64,000 bases of DNA from Escherichia phage 310Ecol104PP. The stretch lies in sequence record OR062946.1; one strand, 5' to 3'. Each line of letters begins with the position of its first letter. Positions within the stretch are counted from its first letter, which is position 1. The translations under genes and the position numbers were made by a program. The notes under the pieces were generated by a model. The model made no database searches. It was not told the DNA's origin and saw nothing but the letters and a program-made list of their open reading frames with translations. Shown in pieces: positions 3,949 to 36,686 of the stretch.

Positions 3949-5375
3949 TAAAATTTTAATTCATTCGCCAAAGCATCTAACTGGGCTCGAGTGGATTCAT
4001 TTCTTTGATAGCGATTCTGTTCAGCCTGAATCTGTTGTGAACCTGCTACTTCACTTACTTCAGTTGGAGTAGAATCTTGTTCAATTTCTACCCATTTTTG
4101 ATTTCCTTTTTGAACGCCCATCAAAAACTTATTCCATTTATTCTTATCGCCATATCGTGATTTGATTTGCTTAATGAGTTGTTGTTCAGCAGCTGCTAGC
4201 TCCTCGGTTTCAATGACCGCAAGCATAAAATCAGCTGTTGCTGGAAGACCAGCAGATTCTGCAATATCGCTCATGTTAACATCAGAAGAATCCCAAGCTT
4301 GTTTGCCGACCTGTGCTGCAGTCCAAAGAACAGTTTCGGTTTCAACAGCCAGAGCACGCAATTCCTCTGCAATAGCTTTAACAGTTGTGTAACTATTTTC
4401 TGAATAAACTCTAATGCGGCAAGATTTACAAATACCTAGATAGTCGACAATAATGATTGTTGGAACAAAATTCTTTTTGAGCTTCAATTCATTCAAGAGA
4501 GACCTGAATGTATTAGCATCTGCTCCACCAGTAGGATACTGTTTAACGATTAAACGTCCAAGAGTAGATTTCTCACGCCATTTTTCCATTTTTCCTTTAT
4601 ACTCAGCGTAAGAAATATGCCCATCATCAATATCATCAAGAGAAACATCAAGCATATTAGCATCAATACGCTTAGCACAGACTTCTTCTGCCATTTCCAT
4701 GGAAATGTAAAGAACATTATGTCCGAGCTGCAAATAATCTGCTGCCAATGAACACAATCCTAATGACTTACCAACGTTAACACCAGCCATTAAAACGTTC
4801 AGTGTTCCAGTCTCAGCTCCGCCTTTAGTAATTTTGTTTAGAATTTTAAGTTTAAATGGAACCTTACGAGCTTTATTCATATAAGATAGCCAACGTGCTT
4901 CGTAGTCATCCATCCAATCATGACCAACGTAGCTATCAAATGAAATTGATAATGCTTGGCGCATGATGTCAGGAATAGCACCAACATCCGGCATTTTCTT
5001 ATTTCGTTTTTCCGGAGGAAGCTCAGCATTAGTTTGAATTTCGATTATTTTAGACGTAGCATTAAACATCGCCCTTTGCTGAACATATTTTTCTGTTTCT
5101 TTTACTAACCAGCTGTGGTCTTCTGGAGAATCAGCCAGTTTTGAAATAAGTGTTTTTACACCAGAATATTCTGTTTCAGTAAATGAACTATTTTCTAATG
5201 CAACATTTAACGCATTAATAGATGGAACGCTATGATACTCATTAACATGAGATTTAATTAATTTGAATGTATTTTTAGCTGGACCACTTTCAAAATATTC
5301 TGAATCCATATATGGCCAAACTTTTGAAAAATAAGCTTGATCAAATATGAGATGAGAAAGAATAATTTCTACCAC
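3948..5375 (-). CDS. 41: replicative DNA helicase gp41
   Basis: 475 aa; Walker A GVNVGKS; matches recalled T4 gp41. Confidence 0.95.
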   Translation of the reverse strand: MVEIILSHLIFDQAYFSKVWPYMDSEYFESGPAKNTFKLIKSHVNEYHSVPSINALNVALENSSFTETEYSGVKTLISKLADSPEDHSWLVKETEKYVQQRAMFNATSKIIEIQTNAELPPEKRNKKMPDVGAIPDIMRQALSISFDSYVGHDWMDDYEARWLSYMNKARKVPFKLKILNKITKGGAETGTLNVLMAGVNVGKSLGLCSLAADYLQLGHNVLYISMEMAEEVCAKRIDANMLDVSLDDIDDGHISYAEYKGKMEKWREKSTLGRLIVKQYPTGGADANTFRSLLNELKLKKNFVPTIIIVDYLGICKSCRIRVYSENSYTTVKAIAEELRALAVETETVLWTAAQVGKQAWDSSDVNMSDIAESAGLPATADFMLAVIETEELAAAEQQLIKQIKSRYGDKNKWNKFLMGVQKGNQKWVEIEQDSTPTEVSEVAGSQQIQAEQNRYQRNESTRAQLDALANELKF

Positions 5376-5384
5376 ACTTACTCC

Positions 5385-5741
5385 TTAAAAGAATTTAAAT
5401 TTTTTCTTTGACCTTTTATTAAATGCATCTTGCAGTTGCATTGTAATACATTTTTCTACATGAGGAGCTAACTCAGCTTTTCTTTCTTGGTCAAGAACAG
5501 CAAAGTCCATTACGACTTTTCCATCAACCCAATCTAATTTTGTCACATACACAATGTGTGTAGAACCATCTTCTAGTTTAATGACAATCTCCTGGATAAC
5601 ATTTTCCATAGCGGATTTAATTATCTTAAGAGACTCATTAAAAAGACGTTCTTTTCTTTCTTTTTCCCCCTCCGAAGAGGGGGATTCATCGATAATTTCT
5701 AAATCTAAATCATCTTTATTCATTAAATTCTTCCATATCAC
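5385..5741 (-). CDS. 40: gp40-like protein (head vertex assembly chaperone position)
   Basis: 118 aa, between 41 and uvsX as in T4; positional. Confidence 0.65.
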   Translation of the reverse strand: MIWKNLMNKDDLDLEIIDESPSSEGEKERKERLFNESLKIIKSAMENVIQEIVIKLEDGSTHIVYVTKLDWVDGKVVMDFAVLDQERKAELAPHVEKCITMQLQDAFNKRSKKKFKFF

Positions 5742-6897
5742 TTAACTGTTCGAGGTCAGTTTCTAAATCAGCAGCTGATTTACTTTTACTTTCTGGAGAT
5801 TTAAATTTTTCAACCTTTGAGTTAATCAATTCATCAACTTCAGCTTCAACAATTTCATTACTATCAATAGCACCTAACTGATAAGCACGTTTAATAGCAT
5901 CTCGGAATGGTTGATGCTTAAATAAAGGACCCCAGAATGTAGTGCAGTTAGTATCTTTTGCACGCCAAGATTTTTCTTCGCGAATCATCTCGCCGGTTTC
6001 TTCGTCAAGAAATTCACGAGCATACCAACCATTCTTAGGTTTTACTACAAATCCTAATTCTAGAGCCATATCTAACAATCCAGAATAAGGATCGATGCCA
6101 CCGTCAAATTTAACATCAATAAAGAATTTACTTTTTTCTTTAACGGTACGAGATTTTTCTACATTTAGAACAAATTGATACCCCTGAAGATCAGAACCAT
6201 CTTTAATCTGACGCTTACCGATAATGAATACAGTATCAGCCGAATACATTACGCCTGTACCACCTGTCATCACGGTTTTACTAAACATTTCAATTGTTTC
6301 AATTGTATGGTTAACCGCAACGCACGGAATATTTTTAATGCTAAAATAAGGAGTAACAATACGGAATAATGACTTCAGTGATTTAGCACGAGTCATATCT
6401 GCCACAGATTTTTCATTCAAGGCATCTTCCGTTTCTTTCTTGGAAGCCATATTACCGATTGAGTCGATGAATACAATAACCTTTTCACCACGCTCAATAG
6501 CTTCAAGCTGGTTCACCATATCAATTTTCAGCTGTTCAACTGACTGGATTGGTGTATGAATTACTCGTTCCGGGTCAACTCCCATGGATCGCAAATAAGC
6601 TGGAGTAATACCAAATTCGCTATCATAGAATAGACAAACCGCGTCAGGATATTTGTTCAAATACGCCGCAACCATAGTCAAAGACATATTTGATTTAAAG
6701 TGTTTAGAAGGCCCTGCGAAAATAGTTAAACCAGACTGCATACCACCATCAATCGCACCAGAAATAGCAATATTAAGCATTGGAATTTTTGTACGAATTA
6801 CATCCTTTTCATTAAAGAATTTAGATGTAGTCAGTTCAGCAGTCATTTTAGAAGTGGAAGCTTTAATCAAACGGGATTTTAAATCTGCAATAGACAT
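5716..6897 (-). CDS. uvsX: UvsX RecA-like recombinase
   Basis: 393 aa; MSIADLKSRLIKASTSK..., RecA fold; matches recalled T4 UvsX. Confidence 0.95.
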   Translation of the reverse strand: MSIADLKSRLIKASTSKMTAELTTSKFFNEKDVIRTKIPMLNIAISGAIDGGMQSGLTIFAGPSKHFKSNMSLTMVAAYLNKYPDAVCLFYDSEFGITPAYLRSMGVDPERVIHTPIQSVEQLKIDMVNQLEAIERGEKVIVFIDSIGNMASKKETEDALNEKSVADMTRAKSLKSLFRIVTPYFSIKNIPCVAVNHTIETIEMFSKTVMTGGTGVMYSADTVFIIGKRQIKDGSDLQGYQFVLNVEKSRTVKEKSKFFIDVKFDGGIDPYSGLLDMALELGFVVKPKNGWYAREFLDEETGEMIREEKSWRAKDTNCTTFWGPLFKHQPFRDAIKRAYQLGAIDSNEIVEAEVDELINSKVEKFKSPESKSKSAADLETDLEQLSDMEEFNE

Positions 6898-24905: not shown

Positions 24906-25376
24906 TTAATCATGTTTCCACACCCCATCGGTATTTGACCAAAGCCGCTGATTATCTGATCCTCGCCACAGCTTTTTAGTCGGAAGATTTTTCTCATACT
25001 TCCCATCAATAATAACATCAACATATTTAAGCATTTCTAGTTGTTTAATATCTTCAAACTTATATCCTGTCCACAACCAAATGCTTTTATTGGGATAAAG
25101 ATTTTTTACTGTTTGAACAATGCAATGAATAACATCTCGGTTATCAGGATAGAGAGGGTCTCCTCCAGTTATAGTTAATCCTTCTATATAATCATTATTC
25201 AAACATTCAATTAATTGTTCTAGTGTTTCACCAGTGAATGGAATACCATTTCTAGCATTCCATGTTGATTTATTATAACACCCTTCACACTTATGCAAAC
25301 AACCTGTAACGAAAAGAACGACCCTGCAACCAGGGCCATTCACAAAATCGCAAGGATAAAATCTATCATAATTCAT
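24906..25376 (-). CDS. nrdG: anaerobic ribonucleotide reductase activating protein NrdG
   Basis: 156 aa; radical-SAM Cys cluster CLHKCEGCYN. Confidence 0.9.
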   Translation of the reverse strand: MNYDRFYPCDFVNGPGCRVVLFVTGCLHKCEGCYNKSTWNARNGIPFTGETLEQLIECLNNDYIEGLTITGGDPLYPDNRDVIHCIVQTVKNLYPNKSIWLWTGYKFEDIKQLEMLKYVDVIIDGKYEKNLPTKKLWRGSDNQRLWSNTDGVWKHD

Positions 25377-27190
25377 TGGTGTTTAACCCTATGCATGATT
25401 TCTTTATTTTTACCGAGATTAAATCCGCGTTCGTTCGGATTTCCCAAATAACCGCATGTTCTTCTTATGGTATTCATCTTTTTAGGATCAGTTTCTCCAC
25501 AAATAGAACAAACAAATCCGTTTTCAGTAGGAGTCATTTCATGGGTACTTCCACATGTAAAACATTTATCTACTGGCATATTAACACCAAAATAATCTAA
25601 ATGTTGTGCAGCATAATCCCATACAGCCTCAAGACCCTTTAAGTTATTTTTCATATCAGGAAGTTCAACATAAGAAATGTGACCACCTGTCGCAATGAAA
25701 TGATATGGTGCTTCACGAGAAATCTTTTCAAACGGAGTGATATTTTCTTCTACTGAAACATGGAAACTATTAGTGTACCAGCCTTTATCAGTAACATCCT
25801 TTACACTTCCATATTTCTCAGTATCAAGTTTACAGAAGCGATAGCACAGGTTTTCAGCAGGAGTAGAATACAAGCTAAAAGCAAAACCGGTTCTTTCAGT
25901 CCACTGCTTAAGACGAGTATTCATTTTAGTTAAAATTTCCTGTCCAATATCACGACCGACAAGAATATTCAATTCGTGAATACCAATGTATCCTAGGGAC
26001 ACTGAACTTCTACCGTTTTTAAATAACTCAATTATGTCGTCATCAGGTTTAAGACGAACCCCGAATGCACCTTCTTGGTAAAGAATAGGAGCAACAGTCG
26101 CTTTAACTCCTTTTAAGGAACTAATTCTACACATCAAAGCTTCAAAACATAAATCCATTCGTTCATTGAATAATTCAACAAATTTCTGTTCATTGAACTG
26201 TGTTCCAATATAAGAATCTAACGCGATGCGAGGAAGATTCAGTGTTACAACACCAAGATTATTACGTCCATCAAGAATTTCATTGCCAGTCGAATCTTTC
26301 CATACGCTCAAGAAACTACGGCAACCCATTGGAGAAACAGGAACAGATGAACCAGTGATAGCTTTATTGTTCTTAGCTGAAATAATATCAGGATACATCC
26401 TTTTGCTTGCACACTCTAGAGCAAGCTGTTTAATATCATAGTTCGGATCGTCTTTATAAAGATTAACACCTTCTTCAACGAACATAACAAGCTTAGGGAA
26501 AATAGGAGTTATCCCATCACGACCAAGACCTTTAATACGATTTTTCAGAATTGCTTTCTGAATCATTCGTTCAGTCCAGTCAGTTCCCGTACCAAATGTA
26601 ATTGTTACAAAAGGAGTCTGTCCGTTTGAACTAAAGAGAGTATTTACTTCATATTCATAAGCTTGGAATGCATCGTATACGTCTTTTTCTGTTTTAGATT
26701 GAGCATAATTTAACGCATCAGCGATTTGCCATTTTTCTGCATCCTCAATATGTTTTGCATAGGTGCGTTTAACATAAGGAGAAAGTACTTTATCTACATT
26801 CGCAAAAGTCGTTCCGCCGTATTGGTGAGAAGCAACCTGTGCAGTAATTTGTGCCATAATTGCAGTAGCAACGCCAATTGATTTAGGAGTTTCAATCTGT
26901 GCATTACCAAGCTTAAATCCGTTTTCAAGCATTCCTTTTAAATCTACTAAACAGCAATTAGTAAATGGAAGAGCAGGGGAATAATCAATATCATGGAAAT
27001 GAATAATTCCGCTTTCATGCGCTTTCATAATAAAAGACGGGACCATATTTTTGGCAATGTGTTTAGACACAATACCAGCCATAAGGTCCCGTTGAGTTGG
27101 AAAAACACGAGAATCTTTATTAGCATTCTCGTTTAAAAGGTCTTTATTAGTTTTATGAATCAATCCTTCAATTTCTTTTTCAATTGTCAT
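25373..27190 (-). CDS. nrdD: anaerobic ribonucleoside-triphosphate reductase NrdD (uninterrupted)
   Basis: 605 aa single ORF; C-terminal glycyl-radical and Zn site CFTCGSTHEM...CSICGETD. Confidence 0.95.
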   Translation of the reverse strand: MTIEKEIEGLIHKTNKDLLNENANKDSRVFPTQRDLMAGIVSKHIAKNMVPSFIMKAHESGIIHFHDIDYSPALPFTNCCLVDLKGMLENGFKLGNAQIETPKSIGVATAIMAQITAQVASHQYGGTTFANVDKVLSPYVKRTYAKHIEDAEKWQIADALNYAQSKTEKDVYDAFQAYEYEVNTLFSSNGQTPFVTITFGTGTDWTERMIQKAILKNRIKGLGRDGITPIFPKLVMFVEEGVNLYKDDPNYDIKQLALECASKRMYPDIISAKNNKAITGSSVPVSPMGCRSFLSVWKDSTGNEILDGRNNLGVVTLNLPRIALDSYIGTQFNEQKFVELFNERMDLCFEALMCRISSLKGVKATVAPILYQEGAFGVRLKPDDDIIELFKNGRSSVSLGYIGIHELNILVGRDIGQEILTKMNTRLKQWTERTGFAFSLYSTPAENLCYRFCKLDTEKYGSVKDVTDKGWYTNSFHVSVEENITPFEKISREAPYHFIATGGHISYVELPDMKNNLKGLEAVWDYAAQHLDYFGVNMPVDKCFTCGSTHEMTPTENGFVCSICGETDPKKMNTIRRTCGYLGNPNERGFNLGKNKEIMHRVKHQ

Positions 27191-29536: not shown

Positions 29537-29926
29537 TTAATCCAAAATATTATTAGGCATTGGTTGAACACTCACAAGTTCTTTAAAGAACTCAGTAGAG
29601 TCAGGCAATTTAACCATTTCCGGAGCATGCTTATTAAATTTATGTTTACAATGACGGCATTTATATTCAAGCTCTGGTTTACGCCAGTTAATCAATTGAA
29701 CTTGTTCAGTACCGCATTCAGGGCAATTAGGAACGTTTTTAGAAGCTCTTTCACGTCGTTCAACCATAGCCATAATAGCATCCCATGCTGGAGGTTTAAA
29801 ATCTAAATCGTCGCAGCCGTGAATCTTTCCACGCATTTCCATATCATCTTCCTCACCAGCCATAATAATTTTAATTAAACTGGAATTACTTGAAGCTGCA
29901 ATGTCTTCTAATAAACGCTTTTTCAT
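29537..29926 (-). CDS. zinc-ribbon protein, 129 aa
   Basis: CPECG...CRHCKHKF four-Cys ribbon. Confidence 0.5.
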
Positions 29927-30852
29927 TTCAATACCTCAATAGCATTACGTAAACCATTTGCTTTTGCATTAAGAGCTTTTAACAATTTGGTGTGTTCTGC
30001 AATTTGGGCTTCAACTTCAATCAAACGGGCATTGAGATATTCGCGTTCTTCACTCAGATTATCAACCTTTTCTACTTTAGGCTCTTTTACAACTGTCTTA
30101 TATGTATTAGGGTTCTTCAGTTTAATTAGAATGCGTGAACTGTATAACATTGAACCATTATCTTCGGTTTCGTCATACATTTCCACTACGTCCATAATTT
30201 TTAACATCATGCGGAGTTTATAAGACAACGAACGAATAGTTTTGTTGTGCTTATTAATTTCTTTAGCTGTCATGGTGCCAAGATTACGTGAGTAATAATA
30301 AGGAACCTGGATATTAATTAATACTGATGAACCACCTGGCTTGTGTGTTACTTCATCAGCAATAACCCAGTCCTTAACATGAACTGTATTTGTACGGTCA
30401 TCGCCCGCGGTAAATAGTTTGCGAGCATGCTTAAAAAGCATATTCACTTGGTCATTGAATTGACAAGCAAATTTATCAGCAAATTTAGTTTCAGGAATGG
30501 TAGATAACCAATCAGCCAAATGAGTCTTTTTAACATCGTTAACAATAGTAAATTCAACCAAATCGGTTATAGATGTCTCAGATTTAATAAAGCTCGGCTT
30601 CATAAAGTTTTTAATGTTATCGTGAGCTACAGTAGAAGATAACATACGAGAACGTTTAAACCATTCAAGCAAATTGCCTAACGAATGAGAATAAGCGTTT
30701 TGAGTATCTTTACAGATATGATTTTCCTGGCCAACATATTGAAGGAAATCACGAAGAATATTATTGATTACTGCTCTGTGTCCTATCTGATAATTACGAT
30801 GTTTAGTAATAAGACTGTCAAAATAATCAATATAATGTTTACGAGTTTTCAT
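29923..30852 (-). CDS. hypothetical protein, 309 aa, C-terminal coiled coil
   Basis: ORF track; first of four tandem genes with heptad-rich C-termini. Confidence 0.6.
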   Translation of the reverse strand: MKTRKHYIDYFDSLITKHRNYQIGHRAVINNILRDFLQYVGQENHICKDTQNAYSHSLGNLLEWFKRSRMLSSTVAHDNIKNFMKPSFIKSETSITDLVEFTIVNDVKKTHLADWLSTIPETKFADKFACQFNDQVNMLFKHARKLFTAGDDRTNTVHVKDWVIADEVTHKPGGSSVLINIQVPYYYSRNLGTMTAKEINKHNKTIRSLSYKLRMMLKIMDVVEMYDETEDNGSMLYSSRILIKLKNPNTYKTVVKEPKVEKVDNLSEEREYLNARLIEVEAQIAEHTKLLKALNAKANGLRNAIEVLK

Positions 30853-30904
30853 GTTCTTCTCACTTGGTTAATGATTTATGCTCCGAGCCATCCTTGGCTT
30901 TAAA

Positions 30905-31906
30905 TTACTTAATTAACTGTAAAGCTTGTTCAAGACGATCCAAGCGATTGACAGATTCTTCCCAAATCTTTTTAGCCTGCTCATATTCTTTCTGCGCTTT
31001 ATTAGAAATTTCTAGAACTTCTTTATAAGCTTTTTCTAATGCAATAACTTCTGGACGAATTTCTGCCGGTTCAGGCGAATCATCAAGATTATCCATTAGT
31101 TCCTCAAGGGTAGTTTCTTCTTTAGAAGTATTCACAATTTCCTCACATTTTTGTTGATAAATTTCTTTATCAGTAGGTGAATAAGCACATTTCACTTCAC
31201 GAAGACTAATTACAATTTTATATCCTTCCCATCCGCATATATTCTTAAAAGGATATGTATGAATATTTTCTACTGTTTCCATACAAAGTAATGCAGTCTC
31301 TAACTGACGAGTTATAGTGCTAGCAATTGAGAAAAATTTATTAATATTCTTTTGGTTAGCGTTTGGTGTAAAAAATCCATAATTCACAAAAATAGCTACT
31401 TTATTTTCATCAAGCTCATATTCTTTTACGATAATCATATCAGAAGCCAAAGGATGAATTTGACGATAATCGCCATAACATAATTTAGAAGCTGATTTTA
31501 GAATTTGTCCTTTGAAAAGTCTGAAATTACTAATCCAACGACGAGTAAAAATATTCTCAGGGTCTTCTTTATTATTAAGATGATAAGAATTAACATCACC
31601 GAACCAATTATATCCTACTACATCTTTGGTTCGTTTAATTTCTTTCCCAAAATTACCAAGAATATCCCGATTAACCAAATATGAAAGAAGACGAGACTCT
31701 TTAAAAGTTTTTTTGATAACATCTTTATCTACACGGCTAGAAATTTTACGAATTTCATGAATAAATTTAGTAGAAGAAACAATACTTGCATCAACACTAT
31801 TGAGCCATTGATTGATAATAGAAAGAACGATATTTTGACCAAACATCGGTATAGCTTTATCATCAATAACGCTGTTGAACGATTTAATATATTCGTTGCG
31901 AGTCAT
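30905..31906 (-). CDS. hypothetical protein, about 333 aa, C-terminal coiled coil
   Basis: track ORF to 31936; likely start ATG 31906 (MTRNEYIKSF) after GAGGAG and early promoter. Confidence 0.6.
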   Translation of the reverse strand: MTRNEYIKSFNSVIDDKAIPMFGQNIVLSIINQWLNSVDASIVSSTKFIHEIRKISSRVDKDVIKKTFKESRLLSYLVNRDILGNFGKEIKRTKDVVGYNWFGDVNSYHLNNKEDPENIFTRRWISNFRLFKGQILKSASKLCYGDYRQIHPLASDMIIVKEYELDENKVAIFVNYGFFTPNANQKNINKFFSIASTITRQLETALLCMETVENIHTYPFKNICGWEGYKIVISLREVKCAYSPTDKEIYQQKCEEIVNTSKEETTLEELMDNLDDSPEPAEIRPEVIALEKAYKEVLEISNKAQKEYEQAKKIWEESVNRLDRLEQALQLIK

Positions 31907-31924
31907 ATTAATCTCCTCAGTAGA

Positions 31925-31954
31925 AAGTAAGAACATTATACCACATCCTTGTGG
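31925..31954 (-). promoter_or_regulatory. T4-type early promoter
   Basis: GTTTAC, 18 nt, TATAAT (perfect -10). Confidence 0.6.
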
Positions 31955-31963
31955 CGAAGTAAA

Positions 31964-32983
31964 CTAGTTTAGTGCATTTAGTGCGTTGTTCAGTTTAGAA
32001 CGTTGCTTCGTGAGATTTTTGACTTTTTCTTGTGCTTTTTCTAGCATCTTTTCAGCTTCTAACACTTCATTGGTCGCTTTAACGAGTTCATCATCTACTG
32101 CCTTAAGAGACTTCTCAATCGCATCCGCGTGCCATTTTTCAACAGGTTTAAGACTCGGATTTTCAATAGGAAGAAAATTCGCTTTATTAAATTTCCATGC
32201 ATCTTTATTACCTGAGCTATACATCCAAAATTTAGGATCGTTTGATGAGCAATTAGATAAATTTAAGTTATCTTGCACTTCCTGCTTTTTCTCTTGCGTG
32301 ACTTCGTCTTTTCTCAAAAAATCATATTTAAATGAAACGATCATATCAAGTTCATATGTTGTTGTATGTTCCCAATTTCGCTCAAAACGAGGTAAAATCT
32401 TAGACTGAACAGCGGCAACAACATCCATATACTTAAATGCTTCTGTCAACTGTGATTTAAGGCATTCACAAATTGAAAGAGAATTTTTTGTATTAGGTTT
32501 AAAGCTAATTCGTGCAGTTCTATTATTTTCTTTTAACGGTCTTACTTCCATCTGAAGAGTATAACCATCAAATTTCAGATTCTTTAAGTTAATATCAGAG
32601 CCTTTTAATCGACTAGCAGTAGACAAAATTTGCTTTAATTGTTTACGAAATAGAGCAATAAATCTCCATTCAATACGATAATGATTTGGATTAAAAAATC
32701 CTGTTGATAAATCAACCTTACTCTGACCAACGCCTTGAACAAATAGAGGATTTTTATAATCAATAGTTTTACAGAAATCGGTGAGCTGCTCACGAGCAGT
32801 CATTTGTGTAATATATCCCGCTTTACTAAAATGACGTAACCATTCACTGCTATTCATATACTTAAAGTGAATATCACGATTAACTTTATCAGGGTCTAAA
32901 TTATTTTGGCACAAAAATGTCATAACATTACGGGTATAGCTGGCATTACGAACCATATCTTCGATTTGAGAACGAGTTTTCAT
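31964..32983 (-). CDS. hypothetical protein, 339 aa, C-terminal coiled coil
   Basis: ORF track. Confidence 0.6.
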   Translation of the reverse strand: MKTRSQIEDMVRNASYTRNVMTFLCQNNLDPDKVNRDIHFKYMNSSEWLRHFSKAGYITQMTAREQLTDFCKTIDYKNPLFVQGVGQSKVDLSTGFFNPNHYRIEWRFIALFRKQLKQILSTASRLKGSDINLKNLKFDGYTLQMEVRPLKENNRTARISFKPNTKNSLSICECLKSQLTEAFKYMDVVAAVQSKILPRFERNWEHTTTYELDMIVSFKYDFLRKDEVTQEKKQEVQDNLNLSNCSSNDPKFWMYSSGNKDAWKFNKANFLPIENPSLKPVEKWHADAIEKSLKAVDDELVKATNEVLEAEKMLEKAQEKVKNLTKQRSKLNNALNALN

Positions 32984-32991
32984 GGTGTTCC

Positions 32992-33900
32992 TTAAGATTT
33001 AAGTAAATCAACAATTTTAATTAATTTTTCACGCTCAGATTTAGCTTTACTACTCAATCCAGATAGTCTGAAAATTTCATCGTCATACTGTTGAATAGAA
33101 ATATTCAGCTCTTCAATTTGCTTATTAAAATAATCAATTTGCTCAGAATGTTTTTCATTACTGCGAACTGGTACAGGTTTTGTAGGCAATTTAGTTAAAC
33201 TGGATTCATCCGGGCGATAAATTAAAATACAACTTGAACCAATCGGGCATTTAGCACCAGACACATATTCTAATGTTCCGGCTTCTTTTAAAACTTCAAA
33301 AGCTAAACAGAGATGATGCCCCATATTAACATAATCTGTAGAGCGAGCTCTGACGTAATAATCATCGCCGCGAATACTAAATTTAAAGCATTTAAGGTCT
33401 TCTGTATTATTGGTCTTAAAAATCATTTGTTTATCTAGACCTTTAGCTAATCGAGCGCCTAATGCTAATAATCGTCGTTGATTTTCCCACAAATCCGCAA
33501 TCATTTGATCGAATGATAATTTCGGCATTAGTCGACCATAAAGGTCATATCCTTTATTATAATTGCGAAGGATTTCACTCGCGTTAATACGAGACAACGC
33601 TCCAATTTTATTAAGGGCTTTCATGATGCGATTAGATAAACCCATTCCAGACCCGTTTGTTCGTTGTAAATGTTTATCTAATCCAAACCCAATATCAACT
33701 TTAAATTTATCTAAAATTTCAGCATGAACATCTCTGTCAATAACATTCAAATCCAAAGTTGGGTTAAATCTATGAAAAAATTTATCTGGCTCTCCACGAC
33801 GAAGTATAGTCCATTCATTCAATTTTTTATTAACTAAAGATTTAATTACTGCATTGACATTATTAATTACTACTGACATATTTTCCTCACTCAATTTCAA
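32992..33900 (-). CDS. hypothetical protein, 302 aa, C-terminal coiled coil
   Basis: ORF track. Confidence 0.6.
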   Translation of the reverse strand: MKLSEENMSVVINNVNAVIKSLVNKKLNEWTILRRGEPDKFFHRFNPTLDLNVIDRDVHAEILDKFKVDIGFGLDKHLQRTNGSGMGLSNRIMKALNKIGALSRINASEILRNYNKGYDLYGRLMPKLSFDQMIADLWENQRRLLALGARLAKGLDKQMIFKTNNTEDLKCFKFSIRGDDYYVRARSTDYVNMGHHLCLAFEVLKEAGTLEYVSGAKCPIGSSCILIYRPDESSLTKLPTKPVPVRSNEKHSEQIDYFNKQIEELNISIQQYDDEIFRLSGLSSKAKSEREKLIKIVDLLKS

Positions 33901-34349: not shown

Positions 34350-34877
34350 TTATGCGAGTACCGTCTTTAACCGTTCTTCAAACTTCCGAAGAGTATTTTG
34401 GCGTTCAGCTCTTTGCTTTTTGTAAGTTTCAATACGCTCTGAAATGAGAGTGTATCGTTCATTTACTGATTCTTTCATAAAATCAGGAATTTCACGAGAA
34501 GCTTTAATCTCATCAAATTTATCAATAACAGCTTGCTCTTCAGCAATTAAGTTATCATACATCAAAATATCTTTCTTGATGAACTCAATATCTTCTTGAG
34601 TTACACGAGATAATTTAGATGCTTTATCCTTTTTGTACTGTTCGTTAGTATCACGAGACCAGTGTAATGTACGATTTTTATTCGTATTCTTGTAAATTTC
34701 TACAATACCAATCTCATCGATAATAACGATCCAATTCCAACGAGATTTGTAAATTTGTCCTCCGTCAACCGTGATTTCACCTCCGATTGAGATGTCATTA
34801 AAGAACTTGCTTTGCGCTTCAGATTTAAATTTACCATCGTTGTAATTTACCAGGTTGAAAATATCTTTAGCGTTCAT
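34350..34877 (-). CDS. hypothetical protein, about 175 aa
   Basis: track ORF extends through promoter; likely start ATG 34877 (MNAKDIF). Confidence 0.5.
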   Translation of the reverse strand: MNAKDIFNLVNYNDGKFKSEAQSKFFNDISIGGEITVDGGQIYKSRWNWIVIIDEIGIVEIYKNTNKNRTLHWSRDTNEQYKKDKASKLSRVTQEDIEFIKKDILMYDNLIAEEQAVIDKFDEIKASREIPDFMKESVNERYTLISERIETYKKQRAERQNTLRKFEERLKTVLA

Positions 34878-36660: not shown

Positions 36661-36684
36661 AAAAAAGGGAGCCCGAAGGCTCCC
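36661..36684 (-). terminator. intrinsic terminator
   Basis: GGGAGCC-CGAA-GGCTCCC hairpin followed by U6 on minus strand. Confidence 0.65.
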
Positions 36685-36686
36685 TA

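What the first reader, a model, noticed from the sequence alone, without database searches (positions are those of the whole stretch)
29923..33900. Tandem array of four 300-340 aa proteins with divergent N-domains and C-terminal coiled coils
Four consecutive genes (309, about 333, 339 and 302 aa) share an architecture: a divergent globular N-terminal region followed by a 50-60 residue heptad-rich, K/E/L-rich C-terminal helix ending near L-K or L-N. Two begin MKTR. This pattern suggests a diversifying paralog family (oligomerising scaffolds, decoys or abortive-infection antagonists).
Basis: seen in the sequence. Interest (0 to 1): 0.45.

Follow-up and report, generated by a model that had tools for sequence, protein, structure and literature searches.

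The report
T4 nrdC.3–nrdC.6 coiled-coil paralog array
Four neighbouring early genes of a T4-like phage are ancient, strongly diverged copies of one gene, each a globular head joined to a coiled-coil tail; one copy, nrdC.5, is already known to switch off a bacterial immune protein, which makes the other three good candidates for the same kind of job.

Summary
The window is a Tequatrovirus, 99.9% identical to Citrobacter phage PhiZZ23. The four minus-strand genes are the orthologues of T4 nrdC.3, nrdC.4, nrdC.5 and nrdC.6, with true lengths of 309, 333, 339 and 295 aa. Each ends in a 46-60-residue heptad-periodic helix. These four tails rank among the six best of 64 long ORFs in the window.

All four are homologous. 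nrdC.3 and nrdC.4 match directly (hhalign 98%). nrdC.5 and nrdC.6 join them once single-copy genes from the same locus in other T4-like genera are added (98% and 93%; null scores at most 23). An AlphaFold model of nrdC.4 (pLDDT 84) shows a helical plus alpha/beta N-domain, a flexible linker and a long C-terminal helix. Its only significant fold matches are proteins of T4-like phages.

Within each orthologous group the coiled coil is better conserved than the N-domain. The genes are often deleted, fused or split in nature. T4 nrdC.5 is published as the gene that overcomes the Dsr1 sirtuin defence (eLife 2022).

My best reading is a lineage-expanded family of oligomeric, non-enzymatic anti-defence binders. 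The genes and one function are known. Joining three Pfam families into one superfamily appears to be new, with modest interest.

The parts
29923..30852 (-). nrdC.3 orthologue, 309 aa. It has an N-domain (about residues 1-236), a linker and a coiled coil (about 264-309).
   Evidence: It matches phrog_1435 at E = 2e-116. hhalign against the nrdC.4 family gives 98%, P = 4e-14. The tail heptad score is 0.86. It is only 60% identical to T4 and T2 nrdC.3 but 78-81% identical to the Mosigvirus allele.
30905..31906 (-). nrdC.4 orthologue, 333 aa, with its true start at ATG 31906. In the model the helical subdomain spans residues 3-84, the alpha/beta subdomain 88-235, a low-confidence linker about 250-284, and the coiled coil 285-332.
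   Evidence: It matches phrog_1435 at E = 6e-169. Its homologues carry PF26897, Phage_T4_Y04OP. The AlphaFold model has pLDDT 83.9 and pTM 0.68. It is 96% identical to T4 nrdC.4.
31935..31963 (-). Sigma-70/T4-early-like promoter match (TTTACT, 17 nt spacer, TATAAT, with TG) between nrdC.5 and nrdC.4.
   Evidence: Found by the consensus scan and read directly in the sequence. This is a consensus match only. The number of promoter-like sites in the region is not above the shuffled expectation.
31964..32983 (-). nrdC.5 orthologue, 339 aa, the member with a published anti-Dsr1 function. Its coiled coil spans residues 280-338.
   Evidence: It matches Pfam DUF7235 (PF23882) at 416 bits against a cut-off of 30. 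It is 92% identical to T4 nrdC.5. Srikant et al. 2022 report the function (PMC9391042). The C-terminal helix has pLDDT 76-94. hhalign against the nrdC.3/4 group gives 86-98%.
32992..33879 (-). nrdC.6 orthologue, 295 aa, with its true start at ATG 33879. Its coiled coil spans about residues 244-295.
   Evidence: It matches phrog_2257 at E = 5e-152. Its homologues carry PF26899, Phage_T4_Y05B. It is 96% identical to T4. It links to the nrdC.3/4 group at 81-93% through genes of Edwardsiella, Enterobacter and Yersinia phages.

Best explanation
The four genes are a lineage-specific expansion of one accessory gene family of T4-like phages (Straboviridae). Tequatrovirus has four copies. Other genera have one to three, most of them at the same locus between nrdC.10 and nrdC.2.

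Each protein has three parts.
- A fast-diverging, non-enzymatic N-terminal domain, made of a helical bundle and an alpha/beta sandwich. I propose it binds a host target.
- A flexible linker.
- A C-terminal coiled coil specific to each paralog. I propose it makes the protein a homo-oligomer, which would add avidity for oligomeric targets.

The proposed function is anti-defence. nrdC.5 neutralises the Dsr1 SIR2 NADase system, most likely by binding it directly before the late capsid protein that triggers Dsr1 is made. nrdC.3, nrdC.4 and nrdC.6 would neutralise other host immune proteins that have not been identified.

What is shown and what is inferred:
- Shown here: homology of all four genes, the shared architecture, dispensability, and restriction to this phage family.
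- Shown by others: the genetic anti-Dsr1 activity of T4 nrdC.5.
- Inferred: direct binding, oligomerisation, and anti-defence roles for the other three.
For: Identity and synteny with T4 nrdC.3-nrdC.6 are established.

Homology rests on direct and bridged profile comparisons.
- nrdC.3 versus nrdC.4 gives 98% directly.
- nrdC.3/4 versus nrdC.5 gives 86%, P = 5e-6 directly, and 95-98% with enriched profiles.
- nrdC.6 joins at 81-93%.
- Bridging genes from Klebsiella, Serratia, Edwardsiella, Enterobacter and Yersinia phages, taken from the same locus, link the families at P = 1e-7 to 3e-4.
- Nulls from reversed profiles and 40 block-permuted profiles score at most 23.

The order of secondary-structure elements in the independently predicted nrdC.5 model matches that of the nrdC.4 model over the hhalign-aligned region.

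Foldseek of the nrdC.4 model against viral structures gives 18 hits at E <= 1e-3. All those with a named source organism are T4-like phages, and most are 300-374 aa long.

No enzyme signature is visible. Only 5 columns are invariant across nrdC.3, nrdC.4 and nrdC.5. There are no Pfam, NCBIfam, PADLOC or PDB matches above cut-off.

The coiled coil is better conserved than the N-domain within each orthologous family. For nrdC.6 the figures are about 40% versus 60-67%, and for nrdC.4 about 38% versus 65%.

The genes behave as accessory genes.
- T2 has split nrdC.4 and nrdC.6.
- ACG-C40, Pinarejo and Manna carry deletions or in-frame fusions.
- The flanking genes are 96-100% identical to T4 while nrdC.3 is 60%.

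Published work shows that expressing nrdC.5 restores plating of a T4 deletion mutant on cells carrying dsr1 (PMC9391042). Dsr1 senses the major capsid protein through a TPR sensor (preprint PMC12803255).
Against: Only one of the four genes has any experimental function, and even for it no mechanism or physical interaction has been published. The nrdC.5 N-domain could not be modelled (pLDDT 45), so its fold identity with nrdC.4 rests on profiles and secondary-structure order. nrdC.6 is linked only through about 85-110 aligned N-domain columns plus intermediates, and no structure confirms the link. The oligomeric state is not predicted. A conserved coiled coil could instead bind a conserved phage or host partner. 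Promoter-like sites in the region are not more frequent than chance.
Confidence: 0.6

Rival explanations
1. The four genes are paralogs, but anti-defence activity is a specialisation of nrdC.5 alone. The others would have different early-infection roles, such as host takeover, regulation, or nucleic-acid binding through the N-terminal helical bundle.
For: The N-domains share only 10-25% identity, so the targets must differ. The N-terminal helices of nrdC.3 weakly resemble the SAM-like core-binding domain of tyrosine recombinases (Pfam E = 0.076; NCBIfam E = 0.002-0.015), all far below cut-off. Single-copy homologues persist in most T4-like genera.
Against: The genes are lost, split or fused in many natural isolates with no obvious cost. 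Alleles are exchanged between genera. This is the pattern of host-range accessory genes and does not fit core takeover functions. The recombinase-like hits are not significant.
Confidence: 0.25
2. The alpha/beta subdomain mimics a virion protein of the tail-terminator or tail-completion fold. The proteins would act as early-expressed decoys that occupy defence sensors specialised in recognising phage structural proteins, without activating them.
Confidence: 0.1
3. The shared architecture is partly convergent. nrdC.6 would be an unrelated protein that acquired a similar C-terminal coiled coil, for example by recombination between neighbouring genes.
For: Direct comparison of nrdC.6 with nrdC.3/4 or nrdC.5 is weak, at 1-19% probability and P = 1e-3 to 6e-2. 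In-frame fusions that swap C-termini between neighbours do occur, as in Manna (nrdC.6::nrdC.4) and P0120 (nrdC.5::nrdC.3).
Against: The nrdC.6 alignments lie in the N-domain and not in the coil. They always pair the same two motifs, and they are transitive across the three families. Three independent intermediates connect nrdC.6 to nrdC.3/4. The enriched profile gives 81-93%, against permuted nulls of at most 20.
Confidence: 0.07

Closest known systems
Phage T4 NrdC.5 (Pfam DUF7235, PF23882), the gene that overcomes the Dsr1 defence (Srikant et al., eLife 2022)
   Same: The window gene 31964-32983 is its orthologue. It is 92% identical, sits in the same position, and scores 416 bits against the family model.
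   Different: Nothing essential differs. The published work is genetic only, with no mechanism, structure or statement of paralogy. The window protein itself has not been tested.
Pfam PF26897 (Phage_T4_Y04OP) and PHROG 1435, the family that already joins T4 nrdC.3 and nrdC.4
   Same: nrdC.3 and nrdC.4 of the window both match phrog_1435, and homologues of nrdC.4 carry PF26897.
   Different: Databases keep nrdC.5 (PF23882, phrog_2351) and nrdC.6 (PF26899, phrog_2257) as separate families. Here they join the same superfamily.
DSAD1 of phage SPbeta, the inhibitor of the DSR2 sirtuin defence
   Same: It is the functional analogue: a small early phage protein that blocks a SIR2 NADase defence triggered by a virion protein. 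The structural papers on DSR2 describe it as binding and repressing DSR2 (papers listed).
   Different: No relation in sequence or architecture was looked for or is expected. DSAD1 has no reported coiled coil. The target is DSR2 and not Dsr1. A direct-binding mechanism for nrdC.5 is only an analogy.
Tail terminator and tail completion proteins (lambda gpU, T5 p142, SPP1 gp17-like, DUF3168)
   Different: The scores fall below the level that indicates homology, and no sequence similarity exists. These are virion proteins without the helical bundle or the coiled coil. Foldseek is not significant.

Membership tests
T4 nrdC.3-nrdC.6 gene set (Tequatrovirus) | Orthology by sequence and by position between nrdC.2 and nrdC.7 on the early strand | tested here: met
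   The gene order nrdD-49-pin-nrdC-nrdC.1-...-nrdC.11 is the same in T4 and T2. Identity to T4 is 60%, 96%, 92% and 96% for nrdC.3 to nrdC.6.
Pfam DUF7235 (PF23882), nrdC.5 | Score above the gathering cut-off of 30 bits over the full length | tested here: met
   The score is 416 bits, E = 1.4e-124, covering residues 1-339.
PF26897 Phage_T4_Y04OP / PHROG 1435 (nrdC.3 and nrdC.4) | Match to the family profile | tested here: met
   phrog_1435 matches at E = 2e-116 (nrdC.3) and 6e-169 (nrdC.4). PF26897 is precomputed on nrdC.4 homologues. That model is absent from the local Pfam copy, so nrdC.3 was not scored against it directly.
PF26899 Phage_T4_Y05B / PHROG 2257 (nrdC.6) | Match to the family profile | tested here: met
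   phrog_2257 matches at E = 5e-152. PF26899 is present on all 105 homologues.
Single superfamily uniting the four genes (proposed here) | Significant profile-profile similarity of the N-domains, above calibrated nulls | tested here: met
   hhalign gives 98.2% for nrdC.3/4 versus nrdC.5 and 92.9% for nrdC.3/4 versus nrdC.6. With enrichment on one side only, the values are 81-98%. Null scores are at most 22.6, against observed scores of 46-106.
Single superfamily uniting the four genes (proposed here) | The same three-dimensional fold in all four N-domains | tested here: inconclusive
   Only nrdC.4 gave a confident model (pLDDT 84). The nrdC.5 model is poor (pLDDT 45), though its helix and strand order agrees. 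Foldseek hits include a 308-aa Tequatrovirus protein consistent with nrdC.3.
Coiled-coil proteins | An uninterrupted heptad repeat with hydrophobic a/d positions in a long helix | tested here: met
   The a/d hydrophobic fraction is 0.71-0.93 over 49 residues, and the tails are rarer than their shuffles. AlphaFold gives helices at residues 280-338 (nrdC.5) and 285-332 (nrdC.4).
Coiled-coil proteins | Actual oligomerisation and its stoichiometry | not testable with these tools
   Only monomer predictions were available.
Anti-defence proteins (anti-Dsr1) | Restores phage growth on a host that carries the defence system | not testable with these tools
   This is published for T4 nrdC.5 (PMC9391042). 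The window orthologue is 92% identical. No data exist for nrdC.3, nrdC.4 or nrdC.6.
Known anti-phage defence system components (PADLOC) | Match to a defence-protein model | tested here: not met
   The only hit is a coiled-coil-level match of nrdC.4 residues 255-331 to BrxC (E = 5e-4, 16 bits). nrdC.5 and nrdC.6 have no match.

The most novel reading that the evidence does not exclude
The whole superfamily would be a modular anti-immunity toolkit. It includes the four Tequatrovirus paralogs and the one or two copies found in other T4-like genera. Each N-domain would be tuned to block a different host sensor of phage structural proteins, such as the TPR sensors of the Dsr1/Avs7 type. It might do so by imitating a virion-protein fold. 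The paralog-specific coiled coil would set the oligomeric state and keep the paralogs from mixing. New specificities would arise by duplication, by allele exchange between genera, and by in-frame recombination between neighbouring copies.
Probability: 0.2. Interest if true: 0.7.

Novelty: new member of a known kind. Interest (0 to 1): 0.42.

Why it matters
T4 is the best-studied phage, yet about half of its genes still lack a function. nrdC.3, nrdC.4 and nrdC.6 turn out to be diverged copies of nrdC.5, the only known inhibitor of Dsr1. That gives three concrete, testable candidates for new anti-defence proteins. It also defines a domain plan (binding head, linker, coiled coil) that can guide truncation and binding experiments on nrdC.5 itself. 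In addition, the result merges three database families into one superfamily confined to T4-like phages. The array illustrates how an accessory locus evolves by duplication, loss and recombination between copies.

Tried and rejected
1. The AlphaFold model of nrdC.5 built from its own shallow alignment failed (pLDDT 45), so no fold search was run with it.
2. The afdb50 fold library was unavailable.
3. Foldseek of the nrdC.4 model against PDB gave nothing significant. A sequence-profile search of PDB also gave nothing.
4. PADLOC and NCBIfam gave only sub-threshold matches driven by the coiled coil or by chance.
5. A profile search with nrdC.5 against 1.84 billion representative proteins found only 13 proteins. 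It did not reach the other families directly, which shows how narrow and diverged each family is.
6. Direct pairwise BLASTP detects only nrdC.3-nrdC.4.
7. I considered whether nrdC.8 belongs to the set because of its charged C-terminal helix. I did not include it: its heptad score is 0.56, it is 175 aa long, and it has its own Pfam family.
8. I considered whether the profile matches between families came from the coiled coil. They do not. The significant alignments lie in the N-domain, and reversed and block-permuted nulls stay at or below 23.
9. The foreign N-terminal part of P0231 matched nothing in the phage collection.
Full report
**What the region is**

The 4.8-kb stretch around the finding is 99.9% identical to Citrobacter phage PhiZZ23. 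It is 86-100% covered at 91-97% identity by hundreds of Tequatrovirus genomes, T4 included. The surrounding genes on the minus strand are nrdD, 49, pin, nrdC, nrdC.1 and nrdC.2 on one side, and nrdC.7 to nrdC.11 on the other. The four genes are therefore the orthologues of T4 nrdC.3, nrdC.4, nrdC.5 and nrdC.6. Many GenBank records label all of them 'thioredoxin'. This label is carried over from the neighbouring nrdC gene and has no support here.

**Checking the observation**

The ORF list gives 309, 343, 339 and 302 aa. Two of the starts need correcting.
- nrdC.4 starts at ATG 31906, giving 333 aa. A GAGGAG Shine-Dalgarno lies 7 nt upstream, and the earlier ATG sits inside a TATAAT box of a promoter-like site (TTTACT, 17 nt, TATAAT).
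- nrdC.6 starts at ATG 33879, giving 295 aa. It follows GAGGAAA, and all homologues begin MS(V/Q).

nrdC.3 and nrdC.5 begin MKTR, and nrdC.4 begins MTR.

The C-terminal 49 residues of each protein fit a single heptad register. Hydrophobic a/d occupancy is 0.86, 0.71, 0.93 and 0.79. The median of the 64 long ORFs in the window is 0.50, and the four rank within the top six. One of the other two top scorers is nrdC.7, which T2's annotation calls a predicted membrane protein. Shuffles of each tail rarely reach the observed value. AlphaFold predicts one long terminal helix in nrdC.5 (residues 280-338, pLDDT up to 94) and in nrdC.4 (285-332).

**Are the four genes related?**

BLASTP links only nrdC.3 and nrdC.4 (25% identity over 226 aa, E = 6e-7). 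PHROGs and Pfam already place these two in one family, phrog_1435 and PF26897 'Phage_T4_Y04OP'. They keep nrdC.5 (DUF7235) and nrdC.6 (PF26899) apart.

Profile-profile comparison of family alignments gave these direct results.
- nrdC.3 versus nrdC.4: 98%.
- nrdC.4 versus nrdC.5: 37-55%, P of about 1e-4, over about 150 N-domain columns.
- Comparisons involving nrdC.6: weak but co-linear matches.

The three weak alignments always pair the same motifs and are mutually transitive. The motifs are F-K-x-S-R-L-L-S...D-x-L-x-x-F, then R-W...F...I-L-K-x-A-x-K-L-x-x-G-D-x-R, then Q-L...A-L...M...V. Merging nrdC.3 and nrdC.4 raised the match to nrdC.5 to 86%, P = 5e-6.

**Bridging sequences from other genera**

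I fetched the same locus from other Straboviridae genera, using the conserved nrdC.10 as an anchor. These were Serratia X20, a Klebsiella Jiaodavirus, Edwardsiella PEi20, Enterobacter KMB19, Acinetobacter Acj61 and Yersinia fHe-Yen9-01. Each carries one or two genes of 292-346 aa ending in a heptad-rich helix. All but one lie between nrdC.10 and nrdC; in Edwardsiella PEi20, the only one of these loci with nrdC.2 annotated, the gene sits directly upstream of it. The exception is a 313-aa Yersinia gene just upstream of nrdC.10.

These single-copy genes bridge the families.
- The Klebsiella gene matches nrdC.3/4 (P = 1e-7), the Serratia gene (5e-6), the Edwardsiella gene (7e-5) and the Enterobacter gene (2e-4).
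- The Serratia gene matches nrdC.5 (1e-7).
- The Edwardsiella and Enterobacter genes match nrdC.6 (6e-6 and 4e-6).
- One Yersinia gene matches both nrdC.3/4 (5e-5) and nrdC.6 (3e-4).

Five unrelated control proteins from the same loci scored P >= 0.04.

With these sequences added, the results were as follows.
- nrdC.3/4 group versus nrdC.5 group: 98.2%, P = 4e-14, score 106, 180 columns.
- nrdC.3/4 group versus nrdC.6 group: 92.9%, P = 4e-7, score 57.
- Enrichment on one side only: still 81-98%.
- Reversed profiles and 40 block-permuted profiles: never above 22.6.

I conclude that all four are homologous. nrdC.6 is the least secure, because only about 85-110 N-domain columns align.

**Structure**

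nrdC.5 with its own shallow alignment gave a poor model (pLDDT 45). nrdC.4 with a merged nrdC.3/4/5 alignment gave a good one (pLDDT 83.9, pTM 0.68; N-domain about 90). The nrdC.4 model contains these elements.
- Six helices at residues 3-84.
- An alpha/beta sandwich at residues 88-235.
- A low-confidence linker.
- A helix at residues 285-332.

The helix and strand order of the independent nrdC.5 model agrees with this over the aligned region.

Foldseek against viral models found 18 significant matches. All those with a named source organism are T4-like phages, infecting Enterobacter, Yersinia, Pectobacterium, Acinetobacter, Klebsiella, Erwinia and Serratia. The distant ones share 10-17% identity, and they include two proteins of Acj61 that are adjacent genes in L014 by length.

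**Evolutionary behaviour**

Against T4, the flanking genes are 96-100% identical. nrdC.3 is only 60% identical, yet it is 78-81% identical to the Mosigvirus allele, and Mosigvirus DNA matches the query only across nrdC.3. This indicates allele exchange between genera.

Within each orthologous family the coiled coil is better conserved than the N-domain, whereas the coils of different paralogs differ from one another.
- nrdC.6: about 40% for the N-domain against 60-67% for the coil.
- nrdC.4: about 38% against about 65%.
- nrdC.3: 60% against 78-85%.
- nrdC.5: 42% against 63%.

Natural isolates show repeated loss and rearrangement.
- T2 has split nrdC.4 and nrdC.6.
- ACG-C40 has a deletion from nrdC.5 codon 68 to nrdC.3 codon 238, with the two flanking matches overlapping by 9 nt at the junction.
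- Pinarejo lacks nearly all of nrdC.6.
- Salmonella phage Manna carries an in-frame nrdC.6::nrdC.4 fusion.
- Protein P0120 is an nrdC.5::nrdC.3 fusion.

The nrdC.5 family is very small. Only 13 proteins turned up among 1.84 billion representatives.

**Function**

Srikant et al. [quoted passage not shown] I found no later mechanistic work and no literature at all on the other three genes. A 2026 preprint reports that the TPR sensor of Dsr1 is triggered by the phage major capsid protein.

The family lacks conserved catalytic residues. Only five columns are invariant across nrdC.3/4/5. It matches no enzyme or defence family.

The most likely mechanism is therefore stoichiometric binding of a host immune protein by the N-domain, with the coiled coil providing oligomerisation. 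For nrdC.5 the target is Dsr1. For the paralogs the targets are unknown. Binding and oligomerisation are inferences.

**Verdict**

The genes, two of the family groupings and one function are already known. The unification of the four genes, and of three Pfam families, into one Straboviridae-restricted superfamily with a shared head-linker-coil plan appears to be new and gives testable anti-defence candidates. Interest is moderate.

Noticed in passing
window 25373-27190 (-): nrdD is one uninterrupted 605-aa ORF here and in T2. In the T4 and Mosigvirus loci it is split by an insertion that carries a homing endonuclease gene.
   Followed up: no
L009:120-641 (protein P0231): On an 803-bp metagenome contig, an unrelated 116-residue N-terminal part is joined to a C-terminal coiled coil near-identical to that of nrdC.5. 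It matches nothing in the phage collection. The next gene on the contig is nrdC.4. This is either an N-domain replacement at the nrdC.5 locus or an assembly chimera.
   Followed up: partly
L018:2715-3752; L019:3305-3716; L020:3439-3652; L007:3026-3859 and 5007-5946; P0120: Natural Tequatroviruses carry in-frame fusions between paralogs (Manna nrdC.6::nrdC.4; P0120 nrdC.5::nrdC.3), deletions (ACG-C40, where the two flanking matches overlap by 9 nt; Pinarejo), and split genes (T2 nrdC.4 and nrdC.6).
   Followed up: yes
window 29923-30852 (-): The nrdC.3 allele of this phage is only 60% identical to the T4/T2 allele but 78-81% identical to the Mosigvirus allele. Mosigvirus DNA matches the query only across this gene, at 84-86% nucleotide identity. 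This suggests allele exchange between genera.
   Followed up: partly
window 29537-29926 (-): nrdC.2 here is 129 aa, with zinc-ribbon matches that are all below Pfam's cut-offs. It aligns to T4 nrdC.2 only over residues 1-99 at 79% identity, so the C-terminal 30 residues differ.
   Followed up: no
L012:12220-12993; L013:12286-13074; L015:12630-13421; L016:10160-10930; L017:11183-11956: In non-Tequatrovirus genera a conserved gene of about 257-263 aa lies just upstream of the coiled-coil family gene (farther upstream in the Yersinia locus). It ends ...YGSLPK...FFKRPS and has no coiled coil. It is absent from the window.
   Followed up: no
window 34350-34877 (-): nrdC.8 (175 aa, PF26901) also ends in a long charged helix, but its heptad periodicity is weak (0.56), so I did not count it as a family member.
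   Followed up: partly
window 36666-36685: A strong GC-rich hairpin (8 pairs, loop TTCG) followed by a run of T on the minus strand lies just downstream of nrdC.11. It looks like an intrinsic terminator.
   Followed up: no
window 29923-30852 (-), residues 30-86: The N-terminal helices of nrdC.3 give weak matches to the SAM-like N-terminal domain of tyrosine recombinases such as XerD. The E-values are 0.076 (Pfam) and 0.002-0.015 (NCBIfam), and the scores are far below the cut-offs.
   Followed up: no
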